DNA of 34,489 bases from a virus (Duplodnaviria > Heunggongvirae > Uroviricota > Caudoviricetes): IMG/VR virus record IMGVR_UViG_2541047695_000003; one strand, given 5' to 3'. The notes beneath the pieces are model-generated. The model did no database searches and was not told the origin of the DNA. It saw only the letters and a program-made list of their open reading frames with translations. The position numbers were made by a program, and so were the translations under genes. Shown here in pieces: positions 1 through 33,072 of this stretch (position 1 is the stretch's first letter; each line of letters starts with the position of its first letter).

Positions 1-100
1 AAATTAGATACTAAATATATACGTGAAGGATGTTGAGCTGGTCAACGTCTACGGGGGAGAACATCCCCCGCTAACCTTTTTCTTATTTGAGGATTTACCT

Positions 101-202
101 ATGGTTGAATTTTTGATTTATCTGGCTGTAGGATTAACTATCGTATATTCACTGGCACATATTGGCATTTCTACTTTGTGTAACGCTTTCAAGTATCATT
201 AA
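101..202 (+). CDS. Small hydrophobic peptide (33 aa, MVEFLIYLAVGLTIVYSLAHIGISTLCNAFKYH), hypothetical
   Basis: ATG at 101 preceded by GAGGA Shine-Dalgarno (91-95); uninterrupted to TAA at 200-202; predicted single TM helix. Below the 60-aa cutoff of the ORF track. Confidence 0.25.
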   Translation: MVEFLIYLAVGLTIVYSLAHIGISTLCNAFKYH

Positions 203-255
203 TTAAATCGATGAATTGAACTATAGATGATGGTCGTTTTCAAAGAGGATTATCT

Positions 256-429
256 ATGGATCTTTTTGTCTACTTTGCTACTCTGCTGTTTTTGACTATC
301 GTCGCTGGCATTAAATTGATTTTTATATCGCTGGTGGTATTTTTCAAATTTCTAATCGGTACGCCTTACGGCTGGGTATGTTTAATCCTGTTTATTCTTT
401 TTAGTTGCTGTAAATCAGACACTAAATAA
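256..429 (+). CDS. Small membrane protein (57 aa, two hydrophobic segments), hypothetical
   Basis: ATG at 256 preceded by AGAGGA SD; ORF runs to TAA 427-429; strongly hydrophobic product MDLFVYFATLLFLTIVAGIKLIFISLVVFF...; followed by two + strand terminators. Confidence 0.3.
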   Translation: MDLFVYFATLLFLTIVAGIKLIFISLVVFFKFLIGTPYGWVCLILFILFSCCKSDTK

Positions 430-588
430 TATTGTAATCTGCCTTTTCTCCTTATGTGGTTTTAACAGGGAATTTTCGAAAGAGAGTTCCCGATTAAAAG
501 CCATTAAAACACACTCCAGTACAGTGTTTTCATAGTCAGTGATCTATACAACACAAAAACATAACAAGTATAGATTGAGTATTAATCC

Positions 589-616
589 TCCCGCCCCGAA
601 GGGGGCGGTTATTTTT
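589..616 (+). terminator. Rho-independent terminator (hairpin CCGCCCC-GAAG-GGGGCGG plus T-run)
   Basis: 7-bp GC stem 591-597/602-608 followed by TTATTTTT. Confidence 0.55.
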
Positions 617-693
617 CTGGCTTTAAAGAATAATGTAGCATTATGTTCATTATAACCTCATCTTTGTTGTGCAAACCTAACCTAAACTTACTA

Positions 694-717
694 GGGACTC
701 TTCGGAGTCCCTTTTTT
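694..717 (+). terminator. Rho-independent terminator (GGGACTC-TTCG-GAGTCCC plus TTTTTT), possibly bidirectional
   Basis: Perfect 7-bp stem with UUCG loop and T6 on + strand; A-rich on the other side; overlaps the stop codon of the minus-strand gene 716-1660. Confidence 0.5.
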
Positions 718-1660
718 ATTGGCAGTAAGAAAAGTTAGTACCGTACATTTCATCATGAAGCATTGCAACATTGCGTTTCTGTTCTTCTTCCTCGTCTACC
801 GCATCACTAGAAAAATGAGATTTGCCCTTAAAAGAACGAAGCAATTGCAGTGCAGCCATCGGATCACGCATCACATCGATTTTCACTTCTACTTCATCAT
901 TTGCGGCCTCATCAGCCGCATTTTCAACTACTGCCACCGGAGCAACTTCTTTAGCTTTCAGTTCTTCAATCTCAGCTTTCTGTGCTTCGATGATCTGGTC
1001 TTTTTCTTTCAGTGCAGCTTTCAGTTCTGCGATCTGTGCTTCCAGTGCAGAGAAACGATCTTCAACAGCAACCGGAGAAACAGCATTAACCTGTGCTTCC
1101 AGTTCTACGAAAGCGTCGCAAGATTCAATACGTGCTTTTTCTTCACCTTCATATGCAACCAGTTCTACTACTTCTTTCTCAGTAGCGTGGCTGTTAAAGA
1201 ATACAGCAAAGTAAGGATTGCCGGATTTGGTGAAGTTCAGTTTAGCTTTTCCGGTAACTTCTTTACGACGACCAAAGGTAATGTTGCAATCAGCGGTATC
1301 CTGAAAATCCATGTTAGGAGCGGAAACGATAGCAGTATCACCAGCAATCACTAGGTGGAACAGTTCAGAAGAGTTCTTAACGGTGAAAGTAACGATGTGG
1401 TCTACTGCAACGTCTTTAGCAGGTTTAACGCGGTCGATTGCTTTACGAATGCCGTTAGGCAGTTTACCGTCAACACCAAAGCCAGCCGCGATCAGTGCTT
1501 CACGATGTGCTTTAAAGCCAGCGAAAGCGGATTTCTGCTGCGCAAAGGAAACATGAGCAACAACTTTCGGCTGAATCTTCTTGTTTGCTTCGGTGCCAAA
1601 TTTGATAACTGCTTTAGCGTTGGTTACTTCGTTAGTGAAAAAGTTAGCGGAAAATAACAT
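716..1660 (-). CDS. Hypothetical early protein (314 aa): globular N-terminal region, central coiled-coil, acidic C-terminal tail
   Basis: Long ORF with diverse composition; AGGAG SD 9 nt upstream of ATG (1660); the + strand overlapping ORFs are low-complexity Phe/Ser-rich artefacts. Function not recognised. Confidence 0.75.
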   Translation of the reverse strand: MLFSANFFTNEVTNAKAVIKFGTEANKKIQPKVVAHVSFAQQKSAFAGFKAHREALIAAGFGVDGKLPNGIRKAIDRVKPAKDVAVDHIVTFTVKNSSELFHLVIAGDTAIVSAPNMDFQDTADCNITFGRRKEVTGKAKLNFTKSGNPYFAVFFNSHATEKEVVELVAYEGEEKARIESCDAFVELEAQVNAVSPVAVEDRFSALEAQIAELKAALKEKDQIIEAQKAEIEELKAKEVAPVAVVENAADEAANDEVEVKIDVMRDPMAALQLLRSFKGKSHFSSDAVDEEEEQKRNVAMLHDEMYGTNFSYCQ

Positions 1661-1704
1661 TATAAATACTCCTGTGGAAAGTTAGTTTTAATTGTTCATT
1701 TCAA

Positions 1705-1742
1705 GCCTCCTTTGCTGCAACAAGGGAGGCTTTTTCTTTTTT
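1705..1742 (+). terminator. Hairpin plus T-run (GCCTCCTTTG...CAAGGGAGGC TTTTTCTTTTTT) between two minus-strand genes
   Basis: 10-bp stem (1 mismatch) followed by T-run on the + strand; on the minus-strand RNA the same hairpin lies in the intergenic leader of gene 716-1660 and contains an AGGAGG sequence. Confidence 0.4.
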
Positions 1743-1774
1743 AAAGCCATCATATAATTCTCAGTGAAAGTGGA

Positions 1775-1954
1775 TTAACAAACTTGAACGTTAATCTTTA
1801 CCTGAATTTCGTATTTCTTCATTAGCTTGTAGAATCCGCTTCTATCAATTCCTTCCTTCTTAAAGAAGTTTTCCCCGCCTCGCTCAGTGTCGCTGTAAAA
1901 GCGTTTAGCAATATCAACAATCATTTCACGAGTGAACTTAACAGGTCTAGCCAT
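1775..1954 (-). CDS. Small HTH DNA-binding protein (59 aa, MARPVKFTREMIVDIAKRFY...GIDRSGFYKLMKKYEI), paralog family A
   Basis: ATG at 1954 (minus) with GAGGA SD 8 nt upstream (the track ORF starts at an upstream TTG, 1969). Shares the RPxxF...DIA...GI...FYKxMKK motif with 5372-5599 and the C-terminus of 5634-6239. Confidence 0.6.
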   Translation of the reverse strand: MARPVKFTREMIVDIAKRFYSDTERGGENFFKKEGIDRSGFYKLMKKYEIQVKINVQVC

Positions 1955-2053
1955 AAGTAGATTCCTCAAATGTGGATTAATAAGGACAATAAAAAGAGCT
2001 TTTCGCCCTCGATACTTCTATTTATAAAAGTCATTTCAGAAAACCCTGCAAAA

Positions 2054-2075
2054 CCACTGTGTATCTGATCAGTGG
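2054..2075. repeat. Inverted-repeat site CCACTG-N10-CAGTGG (operator-like)
   Basis: Perfect 6-bp arms; a near-identical copy lies at 2139-2160; adjacent to a candidate leftward promoter (-35 TTGCAG 2050-2045). Confidence 0.4.
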
Positions 2076-2138
2076 GAGCACGAATTGCTAAAGAGAAGAT
2101 TAATTATTAATCAATTCGTACAATATTCAACCGAAAAA

Positions 2139-2177
2139 GCACTGTATATCTAACCAGTGCTGTATGAATTAGCAGTG
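2139..2177. repeat. Inverted-repeat site GCACTG-N10-CAGTGC followed by a third CAGTG half-site
   Basis: GCACTGTATATCTAACCAGTGC (2139-2160), then CAGTG again at 2173-2177; direct repeat of the 2054-2075 element (CACTGT-TATCT-A-CAGTG core). Confidence 0.4.
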
Positions 2178-2296
2178 AATCAGGAGATTTTCAGAAGTGA
2201 ACAATCATTTCACACATGTATTTATAACGTGGAAATTCTTGCTTATCATCTATATGGGGACTGTTTAGAAAATTTCAACCCCCACCAGTGAGAAAA

Positions 2297-2325
2297 AGTA
2301 TAAAATAATCCTTGACAGTTGTCAA
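2297..2325 (-). promoter_or_regulatory. Candidate sigma70-type promoter reading leftward (-35 TTGACA, 17-bp spacer, -10 TATACT), overlapping palindrome TTGACAGTTGTCAA
   Basis: Minus-strand TTGACA at 2325-2320 and TATACT at 2302-2297 with exact 17-nt spacing; the perfect 14-bp palindrome 2312-2325 could also be an operator. Confidence 0.4.
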
Positions 2326-2519
2326 TGCACTTGACCTAAGCGAGAAATGACTATCAAAATTTTTGTTTGAAAATGGTAGATCAGGATTATCAACCTTTAT
2401 AACCTATTATAGCGCGGAGACCTTTTGACAATTCTTTTTAAATCATTAACTTACGCCACTTTTTGGTGATTTTTTGATTAAATAATATACAAGAATTTTC
2501 TATCAAAATATTTGATGGG

Positions 2520-2770
2520 AATTGCCCCTGAAATTCTGAATTTTTGCCCCCGAATAAAATCCCCAAGATTCTACTATCCCATTTTTGCCCCTGAAACCTA
2601 CTATTTTTGCCCCTGAAATTCTGGGAAACAGTGATTTTGCCCCTCATTTTTGCCCCTGAAATGCCAATAATTGCCCCTGAAAATCTAATTTTTGCCCCTC
2701 ATTTTTGCCCCTGAAAAGGATTGGTGAGAAAAACCCTTTATAAAACATTAACTTAGCGAGGGGCAAAAGC
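2520..2770. repeat. Iteron-like array: ~9 direct copies of (T)TTTTGCCCCTGAAA (core GCCCCTGAAA / GCCCCTCA) plus one inverted copy (GAGGGGCAAAA)
   Basis: Cores at 2524, 2555 (variant GCCCCCGAAT), 2587, 2609, 2639 (GCCCCTCA), 2652, 2673, 2694 (GCCCCTCA), 2707; inverted copy 2759-2769; irregular spacing of roughly 13-32 bp; no spacer regularity, no coding potential. Confidence 0.75.
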
Positions 2771-2859
2771 GGGGGATCGGGCGTGCATAGATATTATATA
2801 ACACATTCGCTACGCTCATGTGTAAAACTAAAAACAACAAATAACCAAAAAGATAATTA

Positions 2860-2878
2860 GGAGGGCGTAGCCCGACTG
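2860..2878. repeat. Direct repeat copy 1: GGAGGGCGTAGCCCGACTG (contains GGGC-N3-GCCC mini-hairpin)
   Basis: 16/19 identical to copy at 3291-3309; the two copies bracket ~430 bp of repeat-rich non-coding DNA. Confidence 0.5.
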
Positions 2879-3055
2879 CGCGAAGCGCTAACCAATTACT
2901 TCTAGTAACAACTAATTTAAACTAGATGATACTAGATGGTCTTAGAAGGAATTAACTAGTTTGCTCGCTCGCTTCGCTCACTCTCAAACGTCTGCGACGC
3001 CACTGCGTGGCATCGAGAATCACTTCTGAAAGGATTTTCTCGAAAGGGATTTAAT

Positions 3056-3142
3056 ACTAGTTACTAACTGATTCTAGAAAGATAGTAATAATCACTTTGA
3101 AGATAATAGTAGTTAACTGGTTACTAGATGATTCTAGATCAC
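3056..3142. repeat. Tandem imperfect repeats of a TTACTA(A/G)(C/A)TGATTCTAGA-containing unit (about 60-bp period); related ACTAGATGATACTAGATGG at 2921-2940
   Basis: TTACTAACTGATTCTAGAAA (3061-3080) vs TTACTAGATGATTCTAGATC (3121-3140), 17/20 identical; each followed by CACTTT(G/A)A. Confidence 0.45.
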
Positions 3143-3167
3143 TTTAATGATCATGAAAGGTATTGGT

Positions 3168-3196
3168 ATCCCTTCGGGATTGCAACCTTCGGTTGC
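3168..3196 (+). other. Two adjacent GC-stem hairpins with TTC(G) loops (ATCCC-TTC-GGGAT; GCAACC-TTC-GGTTGC), no T-run
   Basis: Back-to-back stable stem-loops seen directly in the sequence; not followed by a U-run, so not a canonical terminator. Confidence 0.3.
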
Positions 3197-3290
3197 TAAA
3201 TTGCTTCCTGATTATTATTTCTCCAAAAGAAAGATTATTATATTCTAAAGATACTTCTTCGTTTTGATCATAATTTAATCAAATCATGAA

Positions 3291-3309
3291 GGAGGGCTTT
3301 GCCCGACTG
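3291..3309. repeat. Direct repeat copy 2: GGAGGGCTTTGCCCGACTG
   Basis: See copy 1 at 2860-2878. Confidence 0.5.
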
Positions 3310-3398
3310 AATACAATCACCTTTCATAATAACAAGAATTTTCTCTTTATAAATAATAGTGAACTTACTTGATTCACTTTCTTTTAGAGGATACCACT

Positions 3399-3848
3399 AT
3401 GATCAATACTAAAACTCCTTTCGTACTTCTGGGTCTGGACTCTGAAAACTATGGTAACTTCCATATGCTAGAAGTTTTCGCTCATCGTGGTTATAACATC
3501 ATTCGTCATTCCGAAGACTCCAACTACTCAACTGCTTTCTACGCTTTAAAACGAAATGGTCGTCCTACTGTGATCATCGACTGTTTTACTGATGAGGGTC
3601 GTCTTCAATACAACGATATTCCAGCAATTATTGTTCGTGATGATCTGCCGTTTCAAGTCCGTTCCGGTGACATTGACCTGGGTAGCTTCTTGACTCTTCG
3701 TGAACTGGATGAAGCAATGTTTAATTACGGTAAAGAAACCGCTCAGGAAGCCCCAGAACAAGATGAGGAAGACGAAGACTACGCACCAATCGCTTTCTCT
3801 TCTCACGGTGGCTTCTACGGTTACGACGAAGGCTTAGATATGCTGTAA
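3399..3848 (+). CDS. Hypothetical early protein (149 aa) with strongly acidic C-terminal tail
   Basis: ATG at 3399 (MINTKTPFVLLG...) with GAGGA SD; the track ORF starts 10 codons earlier without an RBS. C-terminus EAPEQDEEDEDYAPIAF... is acidic. Confidence 0.7.
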   Translation: MINTKTPFVLLGLDSENYGNFHMLEVFAHRGYNIIRHSEDSNYSTAFYALKRNGRPTVIIDCFTDEGRLQYNDIPAIIVRDDLPFQVRSGDIDLGSFLTLRELDEAMFNYGKETAQEAPEQDEEDEDYAPIAFSSHGGFYGYDEGLDML

Positions 3849-3883
3849 GTTAGGTCAACCCTTTGGCATCTTGTCAAGGGGTA

Positions 3884-3912
3884 TTGACAAAAATTTCTGA
3901 CTTTTTTATGAT
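3884..3912 (+). promoter_or_regulatory. Candidate sigma70 promoter (-35 TTGACA 3884-3889, 17-bp spacer, -10 TATGAT 3907-3912); -35 embedded in inverted repeat TTGTCAAGGGGTATTGACAA (3871-3890)
   Basis: Consensus -35 and near-consensus -10 with 17-nt spacing about 55 nt upstream of the 3969 start codon; a second TTGACA lies at 3921-3926. Confidence 0.5.
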
Positions 3913-3968
3913 TATCGAACTTGACAACTTTGAACCTATTTGACCTAGATTTGTAAAGAGGATGTAAC

Positions 3969-4301
3969 ATGAAAGAATTTACCATCACTAAATCCCTGTA
4001 TGACTGGACTGTTAAAATCTCCGGCAAAACCGTTTCTGTAACCCCTAGCCATGTAGAAAATGATTGGGGCGTATCCCGTGAAACTATCTCCCGTAGTATG
4101 CATGTTCCGTTTGATCTGATGACCTTAACTGGTATTCATGCAATGCTGGAAGTTCGCGAGCAATTCGAAGCTGGTAATCACAATGCAACTCCAGTTAGCA
4201 ATCACCTTCTTACTAATGAAGAACGTGAAATCATCGAAAACTGGCGTTATGAATATGCGATTCCTTATTATGAAGAAGACCAAGTAGAAATCGATTGGTG
4301 A
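3969..4301 (+). CDS. Hypothetical protein (110 aa)
   Basis: ATG with AGAGGA SD 7 nt upstream; promoter candidate immediately upstream; no recognisable motif. Confidence 0.75.
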   Translation: MKEFTITKSLYDWTVKISGKTVSVTPSHVENDWGVSRETISRSMHVPFDLMTLTGIHAMLEVREQFEAGNHNATPVSNHLLTNEEREIIENWRYEYAIPYYEEDQVEIDW

Positions 4302-4389
4302 TAAATTTCTATTATAAATAAAATTGTTCCGGTTGAGATGCCGGAACTAGGAGGATCAATCACTAAACCGTTTAAGGGGAATTAATACT

Positions 4390-5196
4390 ATGAATACTGT
4401 TACCGTTATGAATACTGCTAAAACTGCTTCCGTGTCTCTGGTTGTTGATAACACCAAACCGCTGACCATGTCTTCCCGTCAGATCGCTGAATTTACCGGA
4501 AAGAAACACTTTCACGTAAAACGCGACATTCGCGAAATGCTGATTACCTTAGAATTAGATGAATCCAAATTTGGATGCATCTTTTTTGACCAATATGGAC
4601 GCGAGCAAACAGAATATCACTTGAATGAAGAACTGACTCTGACTCTTGTCACTGGTTACAATATCCAGATGCGAAACGCGGTTATTCAGGAATGGAAGCG
4701 ACTGAAAGAAGAAAATGAAAAACTTCGCTCTACTCCGGTTAACCCGTATGCAGACTTTGAAGAAACAGACTGGATCGAACTGGCATTAAAGAAAACTCGC
4801 GAAAATAAAAAGCTGATTGAACTTCATGTTCGCAAATCCGTAGATAGCCATTCAATGACGCGTCTGTTAGGCGCTAAAAAGGGCGCTACGAAGGTTAAAG
4901 AAGCACTGACGGCCTTACGTACTGCTGGATACATCGAGCGCGTCTATGATGAAAATAACAAGCCGTGTGGGTATGTTGCTAATGATTCTTCTCTCTCTTT
5001 CTGCCGCATGAATGCTCACTACCAACTTGAGTTTACTGTTGATGTGCTTCCGGTGCTGGTTGAATTGGGTGTTTTGGAAGAAGAACAAAAAGCAACTCTG
5101 AATCTTCCTAAGCCGAACAACACTATTCTGATTCAAAATAAAGCGGCTGAACGTCTCCGTCAGAATGTTGGATCACTGGAAGTCTTCGGACTGTAA
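4390..5196 (+). CDS. Rha-family phage regulatory protein / antirepressor-like (268 aa)
   Basis: N-terminal SRQIAEFTGKKHFHVKRDIREML matches the conserved Rha-domain signature (HxxVxRDI) as I recall it; AAGGGG SD; followed by a strong terminator. Confidence 0.75.
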   Translation: MNTVTVMNTAKTASVSLVVDNTKPLTMSSRQIAEFTGKKHFHVKRDIREMLITLELDESKFGCIFFDQYGREQTEYHLNEELTLTLVTGYNIQMRNAVIQEWKRLKEENEKLRSTPVNPYADFEETDWIELALKKTRENKKLIELHVRKSVDSHSMTRLLGAKKGATKVKEALTALRTAGYIERVYDENNKPCGYVANDSSLSFCRMNAHYQLEFTVDVLPVLVELGVLEEEQKATLNLPKPNNTILIQNKAAERLRQNVGSLEVFGL

Positions 5197-5202
5197 TTAA
5201 TC

Positions 5203-5236
5203 GCCCGGCGCATAATTGCGCTGGGCTTTTTGTTTT
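5203..5236 (+). terminator. Rho-independent terminator (GCCCGGCGC-ATAATT-GCGCTGGGC plus TTTTTGTTTTT)
   Basis: 9-bp stem with one G-U pair followed by a T-run directly after the 4390-5196 stop. Confidence 0.7.
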
Positions 5237-5330
5237 TATAGATAACAGCATTTTTGCTGGCATCTATAGATCAGTCCAGATTTGGACTCAACTTAGAAAT
5301 GAGCGCAGTTTTGCGCCGATTGTTTTACAT

Positions 5331-5356
5331 ACAAAAAAGCCACTCCGAAGAGTGGC
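5331..5356 (-). terminator. Rho-independent terminator for the leftward operon (GCCACTC-TTCG-GAGTGGC plus U-run on minus strand)
   Basis: Perfect 7-bp stem 5339-5345/5350-5356; A6 on + strand (5333-5338) gives a U-run after the hairpin on the minus transcript; 15 nt beyond the stop of 5372-5599. Confidence 0.6.
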
Positions 5357-5371
5357 AAAGAGAATCAAAAC

Positions 5372-5599
5372 TCAAAAACCTGTTGCTTCTACGATCTGAC
5401 CATCACCGATCTGAACATAGAATTTAATGTCTAACTTCTTCATATTCTTATAGAATTGGGCAATTGAAATCCCATGTTCACTAAGAATCTGTTCTTTCGC
5501 TTCCTTACCACGATCCGCTGTATAATAAGCGTAGGCAATATCAGCCATTTGTTCAGCGTTAAAACGGGCAGGACGACCGCGAGTAGCTTTAGTAGTCAT
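5372..5599 (-). CDS. Small HTH DNA-binding protein (75 aa, MTTKATRGRPARFNAEQMADIAYAY...GISIAQFYKNMKKL), paralog family A; resembles terminase-small-subunit / AlpA-type N-terminal HTH
   Basis: Second in-frame ATG (5599) has GGAGAA SD at 6-nt spacing; the first ATG (5605) abuts the SD. GRP-x-RF...DIA...GIS..FYK.MKK motif shared with 1775-1954. Confidence 0.6.
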   Translation of the reverse strand: MTTKATRGRPARFNAEQMADIAYAYYTADRGKEAKEQILSEHGISIAQFYKNMKKLDIKFYVQIGDGQIVEATGF

Positions 5600-5633
5600 A
5601 GTCATTTCTCCAAATTAAAGTGAATGTTCACTT

Positions 5634-6239
5634 TTATTTAGAGGACTTACATTTTATCGGAAAAAGTTCTCCATCGTCAATACTCATAAAGAACTCTGCC
5701 TTAATCCCGTACTTCTTCAACCGTGAATAGTATGTACCCCGACTTATATCAACCTTGCGCAGCACTTCAAAGAACCCTTTAGGATCGTTGTAATAGTGGC
5801 TGTATCGCACGTTAGCGAGTTCTACAAACAATTCCCTTGTATCACCATAGCCTTTCTTGAAAGCCTCGTTACGATAGCGTGTAATAGCGTGATTCAATCT
5901 CTTCTGTTTCAACACTTCTCGGATCGGCTTCCACTGCAACCTATAGATAGGACCGTCATCAATGCGATAATAACGCTTGATATCAAAATCAAACCAATCT
6001 CGGACTCGCTGAAACTCTGTCTGTGAGGTGCGATACTTCTTAAAGAAGTTATGAATATCGGTATACCCATGATCACGATACAACTCGATTAAAATCTGTT
6101 TAGCTTCCTCACGACTAAAGCCAGATGTTGTGTAATCAGTCTTCTTGTGATGGTGCTTAACTGGCAAACGATATTCATGATCGGTACAACAAGAAAAGGC
6201 TAATTCTACTTCATCTCTTTGTTGCTGATTAATTAGCAT
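5634..6239 (-). CDS. Hypothetical protein (201 aa) with C-terminal HTH-like segment ([16 protein letters not shown]) related to paralog family A
   Basis: AGGGGG SD 5 nt upstream of ATG 6239; divergent from the terminase gene; function unknown. Confidence 0.7.
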
Positions 6240-6326
6240 ACAACCCCCTTAAATATTAATACCCGTATTTATCAAAATATCAACAATTTAATAAATACCT
6301 TCATATTTCGTAATGAGGGTAATTAC

Positions 6327-8234
6327 ATGAAACTAATTTCTAATAAGGCCAAATTAAAAAAGATTCTCAGAAATGCAGCCAAATATATTACGCCACCGCC
6401 TAAACTCCTTCCATCGGAATGGTGCGAAGCTAATATGGTGCTGGTAGATGGTCCTCAAGCTGGGGATAAAGTTAAATTGCTGTCATTCCAGAAAGGTATG
6501 ATTGATGCTCCTTTCCTTGAGAACAAGAAAAAGTATGTTCTGATGACCAGTGCGCAGATCGGAAAGACTACCATCCTGAACGGCATCCTGTTTAACCAGA
6601 TGGCTAACGATCCATGCAATATGATTATCGGACAATCAACCGCTAAAGAAATGTCTCAATATCTCGCTGGTAAGATCCGACCGTCTATCGAAGCATGTGA
6701 TGCATTAAAAGACGTGGTTACAGACAAGAATGATCGCAATGCGGTTAACAACAATAACCAACTCCAGCTAAAAACGAATCACTTCCTGTACATGGTATCG
6801 CTTACCAGTCCATCAACCCTGCGCGGTAAGACTGCAAAGGTCGGACTACTAGACGAAATCGATGCTGCTACAGCCTCAGAAGAAGGTGATCCGGTGGCAC
6901 TGGCTGCTAACCGTTTAACTACCTTTGGCGATGAAGGCCGATTAGTCGTATCCAGTACCCCGACCAGTAAGCTCGGAAGCATTAACCAGCAATGGTTATC
7001 AAGCGATATGCGTATGTTTTTTGTTCCGTGTCCTCATTGCGGGGAACACCAGGTGATCGAGTGGGAAAACGTTCAATTTGAATGGCGTAACATCGATGGT
7101 AAGAACTTACCCGATCCTGATACCGCTCGTTATATTTGCCCCCACTGTAAGAACGCATGGACAGAAGGGGAACGAATCAGGGCAGTAGCGCAAGGCGAGT
7201 GGAGAGCAACCCGTGAAAGTGAAGTAGCAGGATTCTGGATTAGCCGTCTGTATTCACCTTTCAGCACGATCCGCGCTTGTGTGGTTGATTTTAGTCATGC
7301 GTGGCAATCCTTTGATTTACAATCATTTTATAACACCGTGTTAGGCAAGGTATACGATGATCAGGACACGGCAGTAGAAGCAAATGAACTGGAACAACTC
7401 AAAACAGATGTTTCTATCGAGAATATCCCTGATGACGTGATTTTCTTGTGCTCAGGAATTGACCAGCAATTGGATCGCGCAGAATCTACCATCTTAGGTG
7501 TAGCGAAAGATAAGGTTTACATTCTGGATCACCGTAGCTTTTACGATCATAACTGTGAACGATACGAATCACCTGTATGGGATCGTCTGGTTAACTTCAA
7601 GAAAACCAAATTCTATAACGTTAATGGTGAACGTGTGCCAATGCTCGCCAGCTTCCTCGATACATCAAACGGTCGATTCACTCAAGCCGGATACCGTATT
7701 TGTGGTAAGTGGAAGAACCTACACGCTATTAAAGGTAGTTCATCTGGTAATGCTCCAGTGATTCCGGTTAAACCTACCCGCACAGGTGGTCATGAATTGC
7801 TTATGCTGGGCGTTAACGTTGGTAAATCCGCTGTTCGTGAAATGCTGGTTAGAAACCTGAAAGATAATCCTCATATTGGCTTAGAAATATCAGAAACCGT
7901 TCCTGATGATTATCTCGATCAGCTTTTGAGTGAATCCATCAAGCGTACTACTACTGGTGTTCGTTGGGTGAAAAATCCAGGTAGTACCCGAAACGAGGCT
8001 CTCGACTGTCTGGTTTATAGCTATGCTGCTTCTCGCTACGTCCTTTCAAAAATGTCATGGGATAAACTCATTGCAATGAAAGACAGCTTAAACAGCGTTA
8101 AAGAAGAACCCGTAAAAGCTCCTGAATCGCAATCTGACGAGCAAATCGAAGAAACTAAGCCAATCACACGACCGCAACGTCAAAACATCGCCAGACGCCC
8201 AAATAGAGGCCGTAGCTGGGTAACATCGTTCTAA
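6327..8234 (+). CDS. Terminase large subunit, lambda gpA family (635 aa)
   Basis: By recall of lambda gpA: matching N-terminal EW-x-ANxxL...FQ segment, Walker-A-like SAQIGKT, CPHCGE...YICPHC zinc-ribbon-like pair, and C-terminal RNEALDC(L/F)VY motif; GAGGG SD; first gene of the long rightward structural operon. Confidence 0.9.
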
Positions 8235-27100: not shown

Positions 27101-27854
27101 TGATAATGCGATGATTCGTAATGCTGCAATTGGCACAGCCCAGATTAGTGATGCTAGTATCACCACGGCTAAGATCGGCACAGCCCAGATTAACGGCGCT
27201 CACATCCAACACGCACAGATCGGAACAGGTCATATCATTGATGGCTCTATCGATAATGCTAAAATTGGTAACTATATCCAGTCTTATAACTGGAATGGTA
27301 ACGATGGATGGTATATCGGCAAAGATGGCACTTGTCATTTTAGACACGCTAATATTCGTGGTCATTTGGTGGCTGATTCCGGCGAAATGAACAACGTAAC
27401 GATTAATTCAAGTTGCCGCATTTTGGGTATGCTTGATGCTAATCAGGTGCGTGGTGACTTCGTGAAAGTGGTTGGTAGGAGTTTCCCGCATCGCCAACCA
27501 AACTGGCCTGATGGTGCAATCACTGTAAGGGTCGAAGATGATCATCCATTCGATCGCCAAATAGTGATTCCAGCGATTCATCATAACGGGTCTGTTCGTA
27601 GTGGCGAAAGTAGCGATCATTGGGATACTTGCCGACTAATCGTTAAGAAAAATGGTGGTGTTCTATATGATCGCACTGCAACTTCTGGCTGTATGTACAG
27701 TGGAGTTATTGACATGCCAGCCGGACACGGGGCAGTAACAATGACTTTTGAAGTTTACTGTAAGGGCGTTAACAACTATAACCCAAGTGCATATATCAGC
27801 GATCTAACGGTAATGGTAACTAAGAAAGCCGCTACTGGTATTTCTGTTTCTTAA
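24108..27854 (+). CDS. Tail tip attachment / host-specificity protein, lambda J-like (1248 aa) with N-terminal lambda gpI-like hydrophobic segment
   Basis: By recall of lambda: C-terminal ~150 aa match the lambda J receptor-binding region (DDHPFDRQIV, DMPAGxGxVxxTF, VMVxKKxAxGISV); N-terminal ~95 aa resemble the C-terminal half of lambda gpI (hydrophobic Gly/Ala stretch, APKTPK, VLPVLFG); central region has Ig/FN3-like segments and repeats ATSE(Q/A)ASA(T/S)KIDQV. Confidence 0.9.
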   Translation: MGFEILVGAVIAGASAGMAAAATFSVMTAVAIGMAAGAMTLIASTVGAPKTPKVQSPDNAVTLGTSNDPKTVLPVLFGTTRTGAICVYKAISQRENNKLVQIFAIAEGEIDHFKALHIDNKNVLISQNMTIRDGILDKGNIKDEYRKVLEVEFRTGKNPNTALDLAKHHLGADWDDRYQGNGIATMCIVLRRDDKSLAAGVDILQPNSQVAVDVMGLKIRNLETNAIEASTNGVDQIFHYLTNTKYGLSVPIENINVDSFLKVRKQVRQMDLHSNGACDPNASFKENLTSLMQTFGGVMFESFGRITLKLDAPDIVKHTFNEDNIMMGKVSLKTGGTNGYFNTINAMYQEPSIDYSEQMLRYPADAENDATIRQDGRIIAKDIEYRFVKSKAQIDKLASVERNKSRITQVISFMTTDAFTAEVWDVISVTYDELKLNNSLWRITAIDRSIDSGIAGMMTITATEYNSQVYTDLNYAATPDNRPTGLPDSMTVQKPTNFRIKATGETIHGKNVTLTWDAPEDFNRYGFQIDYRVSGSPNWIKLGQTSQQIFNINALAKDRSYDYRVCAFGIIARSEWVELVNQNPTVTYELPTPVIRIKNQGSTPGTFEGNDLIIEWENQQQLDVMINGEANKFSDLFEAYIIKVTNKAGKSIQYRTRDPESWTYTLDMNQFNGLSRELTVEVSVKGYNNSESAPARLVAINPQHKPMKGFSARGGFNTAFVSWADDVEHDYAGSIIQYATDNTFSDARAVTTNSVSHTSFDLADGDYYIRGAHYDIFGMDDAVWSEPYFMQMKSTISWDDQDKEALEDLIGLQDRLDETIADAIAQAGANADAKIDAMHKQITTETGQTVQASADTLKSLIATSEQASATKIDQVKAELKGDITKEVSASATTLKQAIATSEAASASKIDQVRVEMDGKIAGVNQEADVKIDALKGTINSKYNLAVNADGRVAGIHMSATNDPAEPTRIIFTADKIAVAPQDGSEVCPFGIEDNKVYLDNAMIRNAAIGTAQISDASITTAKIGTAQINGAHIQHAQIGTGHIIDGSIDNAKIGNYIQSYNWNGNDGWYIGKDGTCHFRHANIRGHLVADSGEMNNVTINSSCRILGMLDANQVRGDFVKVVGRSFPHRQPNWPDGAITVRVEDDHPFDRQIVIPAIHHNGSVRSGESSDHWDTCRLIVKKNGGVLYDRTATSGCMYSGVIDMPAGHGAVTMTFEVYCKGVNNYNPSAYISDLTVMVTKKAATGISVS

Positions 27855-31343: not shown

Positions 31344-33023
31344 TTAAATTCCAAATTCCTGTAATGGACCTGGTATTTCCTCTTCTGGTTTCCAGTTCTT
31401 ATCTGTCAGCATGTCTAAACATGGATGCAGAACAAGCCCGTTGCTCTCCAGAATCTGCCTATCATTGATAGTTTTCAAATCAATGAATATCCGGCCTTTC
31501 CTCGTTCCTCTTGAATTTTCTATTACAACTCTCTGGGTCTTTCCATCGATGTATTCCAGCACAAACAAGTTTTTATTTCTGTCAATCCTGCTACACCCGA
31601 TCCGCTTTAGAGCTTGCTTAATCTTAAACCGGACCTTTAGTCGTTCCTCGTTATAAACATCTTCTAAATCAAATTCTGCGAGCTTCTCCCAGCCTTGAGA
31701 GTCCACAGAATACATTTCCTCTTCTGCCATCTTGATCTGATTGTAGAGTGTTTCACGCTCGCTATTGAGGGTAGTAATCTGATCGGCTAGCTCCTTCGTT
31801 GCTCCTGTCATAGCAGAAAGGGCAATCAGGTTATCAATCTTGCGTGATATTTCATCAACCTGTACTTTCAACGCCGGAACCGGATTAGCCTTGTCCTCAG
31901 CAATCCATATTTTATCAGCCAGCAATTGCAATACAGCTTTCTCTAATTGATCACCTCGAAAACTCCAGTTTGGATGCTCGCAATCAAGTCTACGTGAACG
32001 GGTCGCATCACATGTATAACGATACTGGTCAGAACGTTTGTTCGTTCCCTTCACTTTAACCATAGCGCAACCGCAATGATCACATTTCAATAGGCCAATA
32101 CCACTAAGCAGGGGGATCGGTTTAACTTCTTCCTTGTCTCCAAAGTTCCATGCTCTAGCACCAATATTTTTCTTAAGGTGATAGAACGTAGCATCATCAA
32201 TAACACGAGGGTAATAATCCTTTAACTCATAGTTAACACCATCTACAGAGACTTCCTTGATACCAATCAAAGCGCGGGTATGGAACAACCTTTCAACCAT
32301 TGCCCGTGACCATTTTGAATGCTTCTTGTTGCTTACTGCTGGTGGCGGTGTATATGTCTCGTTAAGGTGATCCAGTATCTCGGCGGTTGAACGTCCATTC
32401 TTCCGTAATTCCACAATCTCCTGAACAACAGGGAAGTATGTAGGATGAGGCAACACATAACCGGAAGTGGTATCCGTCCACCACATATTCTTTCCAACTT
32501 CCTCGATTGCCACTGCCGGATTCTGGGGATTTTCTTGATGGGCTTTAATCTTAATCAGTGCGCTTGAGTTAGTACGATTGCGCTTAGTCTGGCTTTCCTC
32601 ATTACCACGGATGAATAAAAGGATGGAGAACATCAGGTCCATCGGGTTAGCGGTAACAGTATCCAGCGAGTAGATCTTGTTATCCATGCCAGTAACAATG
32701 GTTATTCCCCTACGGATGATTGAAAGGAATAACTCCTGCGCACTGACAATATCGGCACGGGATAAGCGGTCCAAGTTTTCAATGAATAGCCAGCTACCAA
32801 CAGGAACGGATCTACCAATTGCATCAAGGAAACGAGATAGCGCCCCTGTTTTAGAGTTAGCACCCTTAAACGCAGATACACCCAGATCCTGATAATCATT
32901 TACCAGTTCAAGGTCATACTTTGCCGCAACCTCTCTCGCCATCCTGATTTGTCGTTCATAACTCGAACCATCATTCTGACGCATAGACGAGAAGCGAATA
33001 TACGAATACAGTTTAGTTTTCAT
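31344..33023 (-). CDS. Large serine recombinase (serine integrase, 559 aa)
   Basis: N-terminus MKTKLYSYIRFSS...Q with catalytic-Ser resolvase-type domain, then a recombinase domain, Cys cluster (CDHCGC...C-x-A...CEH) and C-terminal coiled-coil, the architecture of phiC31/Bxb1-type integrases. Start taken at ATG 33023 rather than the upstream TTG 33038 of the track. Confidence 0.9.
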   Translation of the reverse strand: MKTKLYSYIRFSSMRQNDGSSYERQIRMAREVAAKYDLELVNDYQDLGVSAFKGANSKTGALSRFLDAIGRSVPVGSWLFIENLDRLSRADIVSAQELFLSIIRRGITIVTGMDNKIYSLDTVTANPMDLMFSILLFIRGNEESQTKRNRTNSSALIKIKAHQENPQNPAVAIEEVGKNMWWTDTTSGYVLPHPTYFPVVQEIVELRKNGRSTAEILDHLNETYTPPPAVSNKKHSKWSRAMVERLFHTRALIGIKEVSVDGVNYELKDYYPRVIDDATFYHLKKNIGARAWNFGDKEEVKPIPLLSGIGLLKCDHCGCAMVKVKGTNKRSDQYRYTCDATRSRRLDCEHPNWSFRGDQLEKAVLQLLADKIWIAEDKANPVPALKVQVDEISRKIDNLIALSAMTGATKELADQITTLNSERETLYNQIKMAEEEMYSVDSQGWEKLAEFDLEDVYNEERLKVRFKIKQALKRIGCSRIDRNKNLFVLEYIDGKTQRVVIENSRGTRKGRIFIDLKTINDRQILESNGLVLHPCLDMLTDKNWKPEEEIPGPLQEFGI

Positions 33024-33030
33024 ACCATTT

Positions 33031-33072
33031 CCAAACAAAAACGCCCCTACCGCGTATTATAACGATAGGGGC
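33031..33072 (-). terminator. Hairpin GCCCCTA...TAGGGGC followed by U-rich tract on minus strand
   Basis: 7-bp stem with 16-nt loop; minus-strand downstream GTTTTTGTTTGG; sits between 33087-33506 and the recombinase start and overlaps the alternative TTG start. Confidence 0.4.

What the first reader, a model, noticed from the sequence alone, without database searches (positions are those of the whole stretch)
2054..2177. Repeated CACTG-N10-CAGTG inverted-repeat sites next to candidate leftward promoters
CCACTGTGTATCTGATCAGTGG (2054-2075) and GCACTGTATATCTAACCAGTGC (2139-2160) are direct copies of a 22-bp element with perfect 6-bp inverted arms, and a third CAGTG lies at 2173-2177. They sit between a strong-looking leftward promoter (2325-2297) and the leftward early genes, overlapping a second promoter candidate, which is the geometry of operator sites for a dimeric regulator.
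Basis: partly seen in the sequence, partly recalled or inferred. Interest (0 to 1): 0.55.

Follow-up and report, generated by a model that had tools for sequence, protein, structure and literature searches.

The report
LexA SOS boxes in E. coli prophage
The repeated inverted repeats are most likely three binding sites for the host's DNA-damage repressor LexA, which would switch on a two-gene operon of an uncharacterised E. coli prophage after DNA damage; this kind of control is well known, here seen in a new phage.

Summary
CACTG-N10-CAGTG occurs exactly twice in the window (2055-2074, 2140-2159; 0.03 expected). The lone CAGTG at 2173-2177 is the right arm of a third box (2158-2177) that abuts the second.

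All three fit the E. coli LexA operator CTG-N10-CAG, each with a consensus-like left half CTGT(A/G)T. The window is almost a whole ~35 kb prophage inserted in ycdX of E. coli.

Box S2 scores like proven SOS boxes. S3 is borderline here but better in relatives. S1 is marginal.

Thirteen related prophages keep all three boxes. Changes fall in the spacers, not in CTG/CAG (1 of 18 core columns variable against 15 of 40; p=0.01).

About half of the family carries unrelated regulatory cassettes without boxes, upstream of the same genes. No phage gene tested co-varies with the cassette, which points to a host factor.

Most likely LexA represses leftward transcription into a 59-aa helical protein and a 314-aa orphan coiled-coil protein. 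Which promoter it blocks is unresolved: a near-consensus promoter lies more than 110 bp upstream of the boxes, and two weak candidates lie at or beside them.

This is a new member of a known kind. LexA binding is inferred, not shown.

The parts
2140..2159 (.). S2, the strongest LexA-type box: CACTGTATATCTAACCAGTG (core CTGTATATCTAACCAG)
   Evidence: Heterology-index-type score 4.84 with a matrix of 18 E. coli boxes. This is the best in the window (next best 10.5), and no site this good arose in 1000 shuffles. The score is 8.8 when the three most similar training boxes are left out, still inside the leave-one-out range of known boxes, 0.6-12.6. CTG and CAG are intact in all 13 group-1 relatives.
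2158..2177 (.). S3, second box of the abutting pair: TGCTGTATGAATTAGCAGTG. Centre-to-centre distance to S2 is 18 bp.
   Evidence: Score 10.9 in the window (12.4 with the reduced matrix). Most relatives have TTAACAG instead of TTAGCAG and score 7.4-9.8. Two sites this good spaced 14-25 bp apart arose in 1 of 1000 shuffles. The CTG is broken in one relative, DEC5A.
2055..2074 (.). S1, weak LexA-type box: CACTGTGTATCTGATCAGTG. It lies 85 bp centre-to-centre from S2.
   Evidence: Score 13.4 in the window and 10.5-11.6 in 11 of the 12 relatives; L008, with flank CAGAG, scores above 14. With the reduced matrix the scores are 16.8 and 14.4, so S1 is marginal as a LexA site taken alone. CTG-N10-CAG is intact in all 13 relatives.
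2297..2325 (-). P1, near-consensus leftward sigma-70 promoter TTGACA-17-TATACT. The inferred start is near 2290, so S3/S2 lie about +113 to +150 and S1 about +215 to +235.
   Evidence: best score, 15.1. Nearly invariant in group-1 relatives. The -35 hexamer sits in the palindrome TTGACAACTGTCAA.
2103..2130 (-). P2, candidate leftward promoter TTGAAT-16-AATAAT between S2 and S1. With an inferred start near 2096, S2 is at about -44 to -63 and S1 at about +22 to +41.
   Evidence: score 8.7. The -35 hexamer is invariant in the 10 aligned group-1 sequences, and TTGAATA is also kept in 7 of the 8 group-2 cassettes; PI7 has TTAAATA.
2141..2168 (-). P3, weak candidate promoter TTCATA-16-TACAGT, with its -35 inside S3 and its -10 inside S2
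   Evidence: score 7.5. The -35 is not well conserved in relatives, and the -10 is part of the LexA core. This is the only candidate that LexA would occlude directly.
2079..2120 (.). Inverted repeat ACGAATTG...CAATTCGT around the -10 region of P2. It could be a hairpin in the leader or a further operator.
   Evidence: It is highly conserved in group 1. The right arm, CTTTAGCAATTCGTGCT, is also kept in group 2.
1985..2010 (-). Small terminator-like hairpin (AGRGC-GAAA-GCTCT followed by T5) just before the ribosome-binding site of the 59-aa gene
   Evidence: It is conserved with G-U-compatible changes in group 1. An analogous hairpin sits at the same place in groups 2 and 3.
1775..1954 (-). First gene of the leftward operon: 59-aa basic protein (MARPVKFTRE...) with ribosome-binding site GAGGAA
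   Evidence: annotated as a 59-60 aa CDS in relatives. It has two paralogues in the window, at 5372-5605 and 5634-6239. The predicted structure has three helices at pLDDT 64. There is no Pfam or PHROG hit.
716..1660 (-). Second gene: 314-aa protein with a beta-rich N-terminal domain, a coiled coil and an acidic tail. Function unknown.
   Evidence: Only two distant homologues exist among 1.84 billion cluster representatives. The model is poor (pLDDT 54) and there is no significant fold match.

Best explanation
The three inverted repeats are SOS boxes, that is, operators for the host repressor LexA.

In an undamaged lysogen, LexA dimers occupy S2 (strong). They probably also occupy the abutting S3, and possibly the weak S1. 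This keeps leftward transcription into the 59-aa/314-aa operon low. DNA damage activates RecA, LexA cleaves itself, the boxes are vacated and the operon is expressed.

What is shown by sequence: the match to the LexA operator, the clustering, the conservation pattern and the E. coli host.

What is inferred: LexA binding itself, and the step at which it acts. My preferred reading is occlusion or bracketing of the internal promoters (P3 inside S3/S2, and P2 flanked by S2 and S1). A partial roadblock to transcripts from the strong upstream P1 may also contribute.

The role of the two proteins is unknown. They may be a switch, an antirepressor-like function or an excision function.
For: - The host is E. 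coli. The window is a ~35 kb prophage in ycdX, found in about 60 of 5426 complete E. coli genomes.
- All three sites have CTG-N10-CAG, the LexA core (PMC2994835), with left halves CTGT(A/G)T.
- S2 differs at 4 of 20 positions from the dinB box CACTGTATACTTTACCAGTG listed in PMC3009722.
- Lewis-type scores from 18 published boxes: S2 4.84, which is better than 10 of the 18 training boxes. S3 scores 10.9, and 7.4-9.8 in most relatives. S1 scores 13.4.
- No shuffle of 1000 gave a site as good as S2. Three sites within 125 bp arose in 1 of 1000 shuffles. With a reduced matrix, the S2+S3 pair still arose in only 1 of 1000.
- In the 11 of the 13 group-1 sequences that are in register without indels, 1 of 18 CTG/CAG columns varies against 15 of 40 other in-site columns (p=0.01). 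The arms outside CTG/CAG are broken in several relatives.
- Identical 60-aa proteins occur with and without the boxes (WP_000113735.1 in L007 versus L010, L013 and L014). Alleles of the first rightward gene and of the right-end genes also do not follow the cassette type. No cognate phage regulator is therefore apparent.
- RefSeq annotation of a relative lists no CI/Cro-type or S24-type regulator in the prophage.
Against: - No binding or expression data exist.
- The boxes do not overlap the only strong promoter, P1. They lie more than 110 bp downstream of its inferred start. The promoters they do touch are weak consensus matches.
- S1 is outside the range of proven boxes once similar training sites are removed (14.4-16.8). 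S2 alone then reaches only about p=0.06 per window.
- The whole region is 91% identical among group-1 relatives, so conservation is only modestly informative.
- About half of the family lacks the boxes, so they are not essential to the operon.
- One relative (DEC5A) pairs the loss of CTG in S3 with a change on the far side of S2 that preserves a longer palindrome. This hints at a hairpin or a wider recognition site.
Confidence: 0.7

Rival explanations
1. The sites are operators for a phage-encoded dimeric regulator. This could be one of the small helical proteins or the Rha-family protein, recognising CACTGTATATC-N4-CAGTG.
For: S1 and S2 share 17 of 20 positions, including CACTG/CAGTG ends that differ from the LexA consensus TACTG/CAGTA. 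S1 is too weak to be a confident LexA site. The prophage encodes several uncharacterised small proteins and three paralogous helical proteins.
Against: No further copy of the motif exists anywhere else in the prophage. Identical alleles of the 60-aa protein, of the first rightward gene and of the right-end genes occur with and without the sites. Only CTG/CAG and the CTGTAT half are conserved, not the outer arm positions. S3 lacks the CACTG left arm.
Confidence: 0.13
2. The palindromes act at the RNA level, or as cruciforms. They would be hairpins in the ~335-nt leader made from P1, taking part in termination, processing or masking of the ribosome-binding site. They would not be protein operators.
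For: The leader folds better than shuffles (z = -3.3) and ends in a terminator-like hairpin before the ribosome-binding site. All three cassette types share the plan of strong promoter, structured leader and terminator. There is one compensatory change flanking S2 in DEC5A.
Against: The 5-bp stems with 10-nt loops are weak. Several relatives break the stems outside CTG/CAG without compensation (PEC41, H2, FDAARGOS_1267, PRO_A). There is essentially no covariation: 3 of 78 predicted pairs. The spacing and half-site sequence match a protein operator exactly.
Confidence: 0.07
3. The boxes are a functionless relic or a chance cluster, for example a duplicated palindrome carried along with a recombined cassette.
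For: Half of the family does without them. S1 and S3 are degenerate in this window compared with the family consensus. The boxes are badly placed relative to P1.
Against: The cluster arose in 1 of 1000 shuffles. The core triplets are selectively conserved. All three boxes are kept in all 13 relatives that have this cassette, at 81-97% overall identity.
Confidence: 0.1

Closest known systems
Chromosomal E. coli SOS boxes (recA, lexA, dinB, recN and others; consensus TACTG(TA)5CAGTA)
   Same: The core is the same 16-mer, CTG-N10-CAG, with the same CTGTAT half-site. The CCAG right half is seen in recN, dinI, uvrD, cho and dinB. S2 is 16/20 identical to the dinB box. More than one box per promoter region occurs: lexA harbours two SOS boxes (PMC2994835), and recN has three by my recollection.
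   Different: The sites are on a prophage. All three end in CAGTG rather than CAGTA. The boxes are not placed over the strongest promoter. The S2-S3 spacing is 18 bp centre to centre. For the two lexA boxes I recall 21 bp; this was not checked here.
LexA-controlled prophage induction modules (Gifsy-1/2/3 antirepressors, PMC3121763; from memory also 186 tum and N15 antC)
   Same: Host LexA boxes sit in front of a small prophage operon that lies outside any recognisable immunity region. A terminator-like palindrome is nearby. This connects a prophage function directly to the SOS response.
   Different: The two gene products show no similarity to known antirepressors. No CI-type repressor that they could target was found in the prophage. 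There are three boxes instead of one.
Tectivirus GIL01, in which LexA itself is the lysogeny repressor at promoter P1, helped by phage gp7 (PMC4551915, abstract)
   Same: The phage has no evident CI-type repressor and carries a set of several SOS boxes in one regulatory region.
   Different: The host (Bacillus) and the box consensus are different. Nothing here shows that the operon controls the lytic cycle. No gp7-like protein was identified.
Colicin operon double SOS boxes (PMC2994835)
   Same: Two adjacent LexA boxes would bind two dimers side by side. In colicins this arrangement gives tight repression with no basal expression.
   Different: Colicin boxes overlap. Here the 16-mer cores are separated by 2 bp, and only the 20-mers share TG.

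Membership tests
E. coli LexA operator (SOS box) | 16-mer palindromic core CTG-N10-CAG | tested here: met
   All three sites. The definition is from PMC2994835.
E. coli LexA operator (SOS box) | Overall closeness to the consensus TACTG(TA)5CAGTA, measured by a heterology index within the range of boxes that bind LexA | tested here: inconclusive
   S2 is met: 4.84, or 8.8 with the reduced matrix, against a leave-one-out range of 0.6-12.6 for known boxes. S3 is borderline: 10.9/12.4 here, 7.4-9.8 in most relatives. S1 is marginal to failing: 13.4/16.8. The matrix was rebuilt from 18 boxes in PMC3009722, so the values are not those of the original Lewis table.
E. coli LexA operator (SOS box) | Resident in a host that has LexA with this specificity | tested here: met
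   The element is a prophage of E. coli chromosomes, and protein names also show Shigella. That E. coli LexA binds this motif is established knowledge.
E. coli LexA operator (SOS box) | Placed so as to interfere with a promoter of the regulated gene | tested here: inconclusive
   Only weak candidates overlap or flank the boxes (P3 at 2168-2141, P2 at 2130-2103). The strong P1 is more than 110 bp upstream. No transcription start data exist.
E. coli LexA operator (SOS box) | Bound by LexA in vitro or in vivo, and target induced by DNA damage in a RecA/LexA-dependent way | not testable with these tools
   This needs EMSA or footprinting, ChIP, and reporter or RNA-seq in lexA3 and lexA(Def) backgrounds.
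Colicin-type overlapping double SOS boxes | Two boxes that overlap each other | tested here: not met
   The cores at 2142-2157 and 2160-2175 are 2 bp apart. Only the flanking TG of the 20-mers is shared.
LexA-controlled prophage antirepressor module (Gifsy / 186 Tum / N15 AntC type) | The regulated gene encodes an antirepressor related to known ones | tested here: not met
   There are no PHROG or Pfam hits for the 59-aa and 314-aa proteins. The 314-aa protein has only two distant homologues and no fold match. The Rha/Ant-like protein of the prophage (4390-5196) is on the other strand and is not preceded by boxes.
LexA-controlled prophage antirepressor module (Gifsy / 186 Tum / N15 AntC type) | A non-cleavable CI-type repressor in the same prophage as the target | tested here: not met
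   None was recognised by Pfam in the 20 ORFs scanned, or by RefSeq annotation of a relative. An unrecognisable repressor cannot be excluded.
GIL01-type control (LexA as the lysogeny repressor) | LexA boxes at the promoter that drives the lytic programme, and a phage-encoded LexA cofactor | not testable with these tools
   The role of the operon in the lytic cycle is unknown, and no gp7 homologue can be recognised by sequence.

The most novel reading that the evidence does not exclude
In this prophage family, which has no recognisable CI-type repressor, host LexA may itself be the master switch. It would hold the leftward operon (a small DNA-binding protein plus an orphan coiled-coil protein) off from sites inside a transcribed, terminator-ended leader.

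The ~480-bp regulatory cassette would then be an exchangeable immunity/induction module. About half of the family is wired to the SOS response. The rest carries unrelated cassettes (TAACA repeats, or a 66-aa leader ORF) and answers to something else.
Probability: 0.15. Interest if true: 0.6.

Novelty: new member of a known kind. Interest (0 to 1): 0.35.

Why it matters
If LexA binds here, this widespread but unstudied E. coli/Shigella prophage has at least one operon wired directly to the DNA-damage response. That would include damage caused by antibiotics such as quinolones.

The natural split of the family gives a ready-made comparison. The same genes sit behind either an SOS-box cassette or unrelated cassettes, so one can ask what SOS coupling contributes to a prophage.

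It would also assign a first regulatory context to two orphan proteins. The principle itself, LexA boxes on prophages, is well established, so the gain is incremental.

Tried and rejected
- Rfam scan of 1-6400 found no credible RNA family; the only hit was Ysr49 at E=0.32, far below its gathering score.
- The near search of 'phages' with 1-6000 gave only a 75-bp match, and the near search of 'plasmids' with 1-6300 gave nothing. The element is not a described phage or a plasmid.
- The homology search for the 314-aa protein returned only near-identical hypothetical proteins. The exhaustive representative search found two distant homologues. The AlphaFold model was poor (pLDDT 54.5) and the Foldseek PDB search had no hit below E=0.02, so I draw no functional conclusion.
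- A protein-guided scan of GTDB species representatives found no relatives.
- A scan for the abutting-pair pattern found 8 matches in unrelated, mostly non-enteric and high-GC taxa. My estimate of the chance expectation is about 4.
- I looked for a phage regulator that co-varies with the cassette type, testing the 60-aa gene, the first rightward gene and the right-end genes. None co-varies.
- I looked for LexA boxes in the group-2 and group-3 cassettes. There are none.
- I considered RNA hairpins. There is almost no covariation.
- A literature search for a prophage in ycdX found nothing relevant.

Full report
**What is in the sequence**

CACTG-N10-CAGTG occurs only at 2055-2074 and 2140-2159 in the whole window, against 0.03 expected.

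A search for CTGT-N9-CAG shows that the lone CAGTG at 2173-2177 closes a third box, CTGTATGAATTAGCAG at 2160-2175. There are therefore three sites:
- S1: CACTGTGTATCTGATCAGTG, 2055-2074.
- S2: CACTGTATATCTAACCAGTG, 2140-2159.
- S3: TGCTGTATGAATTAGCAGTG, 2158-2177.

S2 and S3 share only the dinucleotide TG. Their centres are 18 bp apart.

**What the window is**

The first 6.3 kb have no near relative among deposited phages or plasmids. They match about 60 of 5426 complete E. coli chromosomes at 88-97% identity.

In strain GN4741 the element is a prophage of about 35 kb that splits ycdX. It carries:
- a lambda-type large terminase and portal;
- tail genes and an M15 endolysin;
- a large serine recombinase.

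The window covers almost all of it. The host is therefore E. coli, and source names also show Shigella.

RefSeq annotation and my Pfam scans show a Rha-family protein but no CI/Cro-type or S24-type regulator.

**Why LexA**

The LexA operator of E. coli is the 16-mer CTG-N10-CAG, with consensus TACTG(TA)5CAGTA (PMC2994835; PMC6590174). All three sites have that core, and each has a left half CTGT(A/G)T.

I took 18 E. coli boxes from a published table (PMC3009722) and applied the heterology-index formula of Lewis et al. The results:
- S2 scores 4.84, better than 10 of the 18 training boxes and by far the best 20-mer in the window (next best 10.5).
- S3 scores 10.9.
- S1 scores 13.4.

No site as good as S2 arose in 1000 dinucleotide shuffles. 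Three sites at least as good as S1 within 125 bp arose once.

S2 resembles dinB, cho and ruvA, which are in the training set, so I repeated the scoring without them. S2 rises to 8.8, S3 to 12.4 and S1 to 16.8. The leave-one-out range of the 18 known boxes is 0.6-12.6.

On that stricter footing:
- S2 alone is only suggestive (58 of 1000 shuffles).
- The S2+S3 pair arose in 1 of 1000 shuffles.
- Three CTG-N10-CAG within 120 bp also arose in 1 of 1000.

S2 is thus a good SOS box, S3 a plausible one, and S1 marginal.

**Relatives**

Prophages of this family fall into groups by their regulatory cassette.

*Group 1.* This comprises 31 of 57 E. coli genomes with a match and 3 of 15 IMG/VR contigs. 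It is homologous to the window across 1660-2500. I examined 12 relatives plus the window.
- S1 and S2 keep CTG-N10-CAG in all 13 sequences. S3 keeps it in 12.
- In most relatives S3 reads TGCTGTATGAATTAACAGTG and scores 7.4-9.8.
- In most relatives S1 reads CACTGTATATCCGATCAGTG.
- The window therefore carries slightly degenerate versions of S1 and S3.
- Substitutions fall in the spacers and outer flanks. In the 11 sequences that are in register, 1 of 18 CTG/CAG columns varies against 15 of 40 other in-site columns (one-sided Fisher p=0.01).
The conserved unit is therefore the LexA core, not the longer palindrome.
- The region as a whole is 91% identical, so this test has limited power.

*Group 2.* Similarity to the window stops at about 2026 and resumes at the iterons. 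In between lies an unrelated cassette. It has two overlapping consensus promoters, runs of TAACA/TGTTA motifs, a copy of the GGGG...CCCC element and a terminator-like hairpin. It contains no LexA-type site.

*A third type.* L034, in which the 314-aa protein is 50% identical, has a consensus promoter, a 66-aa ORF and the terminator. It too has no boxes.

Where the boxes are missing, the promoter and leader were replaced as well.

**Is a phage regulator a better candidate?**

I looked for any phage gene that follows the cassette type.
- The identical 60-aa protein WP_000113735.1 occurs with boxes (L007) and without (L010, L013, L014).
- Both allele types of the first rightward gene occur in both groups.
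- The right-end genes next to the recombinase are 96-97% identical to the window in members of both groups.
- The rest of 421-6300 is about 93% identical in a group-2 genome.
- No further copy of the motif exists in the prophage.

A host protein fits this pattern better than a phage one. It is not proof, because a regulator could act on both cassettes through other sites.

**Geometry and mechanism**

Reading leftward, the elements come in this order:
1. P1, TTGACA-17-TATACT (2325-2297; inferred start near 2290).
2. A GGGG...CCCC hairpin.
3. S3 and S2.
4. P2, TTGAAT-16-AATAAT (2130-2103; -35 invariant in the 10 aligned group-1 sequences).
5. The inverted repeat ACGAATTG...CAATTCGT (2120-2079).
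6. S1.
7. A small terminator-like hairpin (2010-1985).
8. The ribosome-binding site and the ATG at 1954.

A weak third candidate, P3 (TTCATA-16-TACAGT, 2168-2141), has its -35 in S3 and its -10 in S2. That is the classical occlusion arrangement, but its -35 is poorly conserved.

LexA at S3/S2 would thus cover P3 and sit just upstream of P2 (about -44 to -81). S1 would sit at about +22 to +41 of P2. Relative to P1 the boxes are at about +113 to +235, where LexA could act only as a roadblock.

I cannot decide among these without mapping of transcription starts. The leader folds better than shuffles (z=-3.3) but shows almost no covariation.

One relative (DEC5A) combines the loss of CTG in S3 with a change that keeps a longer palindrome around S2. 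I record this as unexplained.

**The regulated genes**

The 59-aa protein has two paralogues in the window, at 5372-5605 and in the C-terminal part of 5634-6239. Its predicted structure is three helices at modest confidence. It has no family hit. By eye its RP..F...E...GI..S.FYK pattern recalls Hin/resolvase-type helix-turn-helix domains. That is a lead, not a result.

The 314-aa protein is an orphan. It has two distant homologues among 1.84 billion representatives, a poor model and no fold match. What the operon does is therefore unknown.

**Comparison with known systems**

Direct LexA control of prophage genes is well known:
- the Gifsy antirepressor genes (PMC3121763);
- GIL01, where LexA is the lysogeny repressor (PMC4551915);
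- from memory, 186 tum and N15 antC.

Prophage SOS boxes are now predicted systematically (PSOSP, PMC12527982).

The present case works like these. However, its cargo is unrelated to known antirepressors, no target repressor is visible, and it has three boxes. The abutting pair is not the overlapping colicin arrangement.

**Verdict**

This is a new member of a known kind, in an uncharacterised E. coli prophage family whose regulatory cassette comes in SOS-box and box-free versions. I put the confidence that LexA binds at least S2/S3 at about 0.7. Confidence in any particular promoter mechanism is lower.

Noticed in passing
window 2520-2716, with an inverted copy at 2759-2775: An array of about nine iterons, TTTTTGCCCCTGAAA (some read ...CCCCTCATT), sits in the 1.45-kb gene-free region. 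It is present in all three cassette groups of the family. It could be a replication origin or a binding array for the small helical proteins.
   Followed up: partly
window 2900-3140: A second set of repeats, ACTAGATGAT(A/T)CTAGA and ACTrGTTACTAaCTGATTCTAGA, partly palindromic. Given the lambda-type terminase 3 kb downstream, these could be packaging (cos) or protein-binding sites.
   Followed up: no
window ~2027-2500, compared with L010-L017, L020-L031 and L034: The whole regulatory cassette (promoter, leader, terminator) is exchanged among otherwise ~93% identical prophages. Group 2 has two overlapping consensus promoters and TAACA/TGTTA repeats. L034 has a consensus promoter and a 66-aa ORF. 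This looks like swapping of an immunity or induction module.
   Followed up: partly
window 1775-1954(-), 5372-5605(-), 5634-6239(-): There are three paralogous small proteins sharing RP..F...E....GI..S.(F/Y)YK.(M/L)KK..I. The 201-aa protein seems to hold two such domains. None has a Pfam or PHROG family.
   Followed up: partly
window 3209-3283: A 75-bp stretch is 84% identical to an unannotated intergenic region of RB49-like T-even phages (Krischvirus). In RB49 this region lies between a DprA-like gene and a hypothetical gene. It is the only DNA match of the early region to any deposited phage.
   Followed up: partly
window 2312-2325: The -35 hexamer of the strong leftward promoter lies in a perfect palindrome, TTGACA-AC-TGTCAA. 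The diverged relative L034 has TTGAC-ATGA-GTCAA at the same place. This may be an operator for another regulator or a divergent -35.
   Followed up: no
window 1189-1208 and 27683-27702: Two further CTG-N10-CAG sites have middling LexA scores (11.4 and 10.5). The first is inside the 314-aa gene and is conserved in relatives. The second is in the 3' end of the tail-tip gene, about 260 bp before the genes that lead to the endolysin. They are probably chance, but this was not tested.
   Followed up: no
window 23-202(+) and 256-429(+): Two very hydrophobic small ORFs (59 and 57 aa) lie at the prophage left end, between attL and the 314-aa gene. This segment differs among relatives, some of which carry a 183-aa, 94-aa or 80-aa gene instead.
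   Followed up: no
L001 19088-19441 and L018 19510-19548 (strain GN4741): The prophage is integrated inside ycdX (zinc-binding phosphatase), splitting it into two annotated pseudogene halves. The same site is used in the diverged relative L034. The integrase is a large serine recombinase (window 31344-33038, minus strand).
   Followed up: partly
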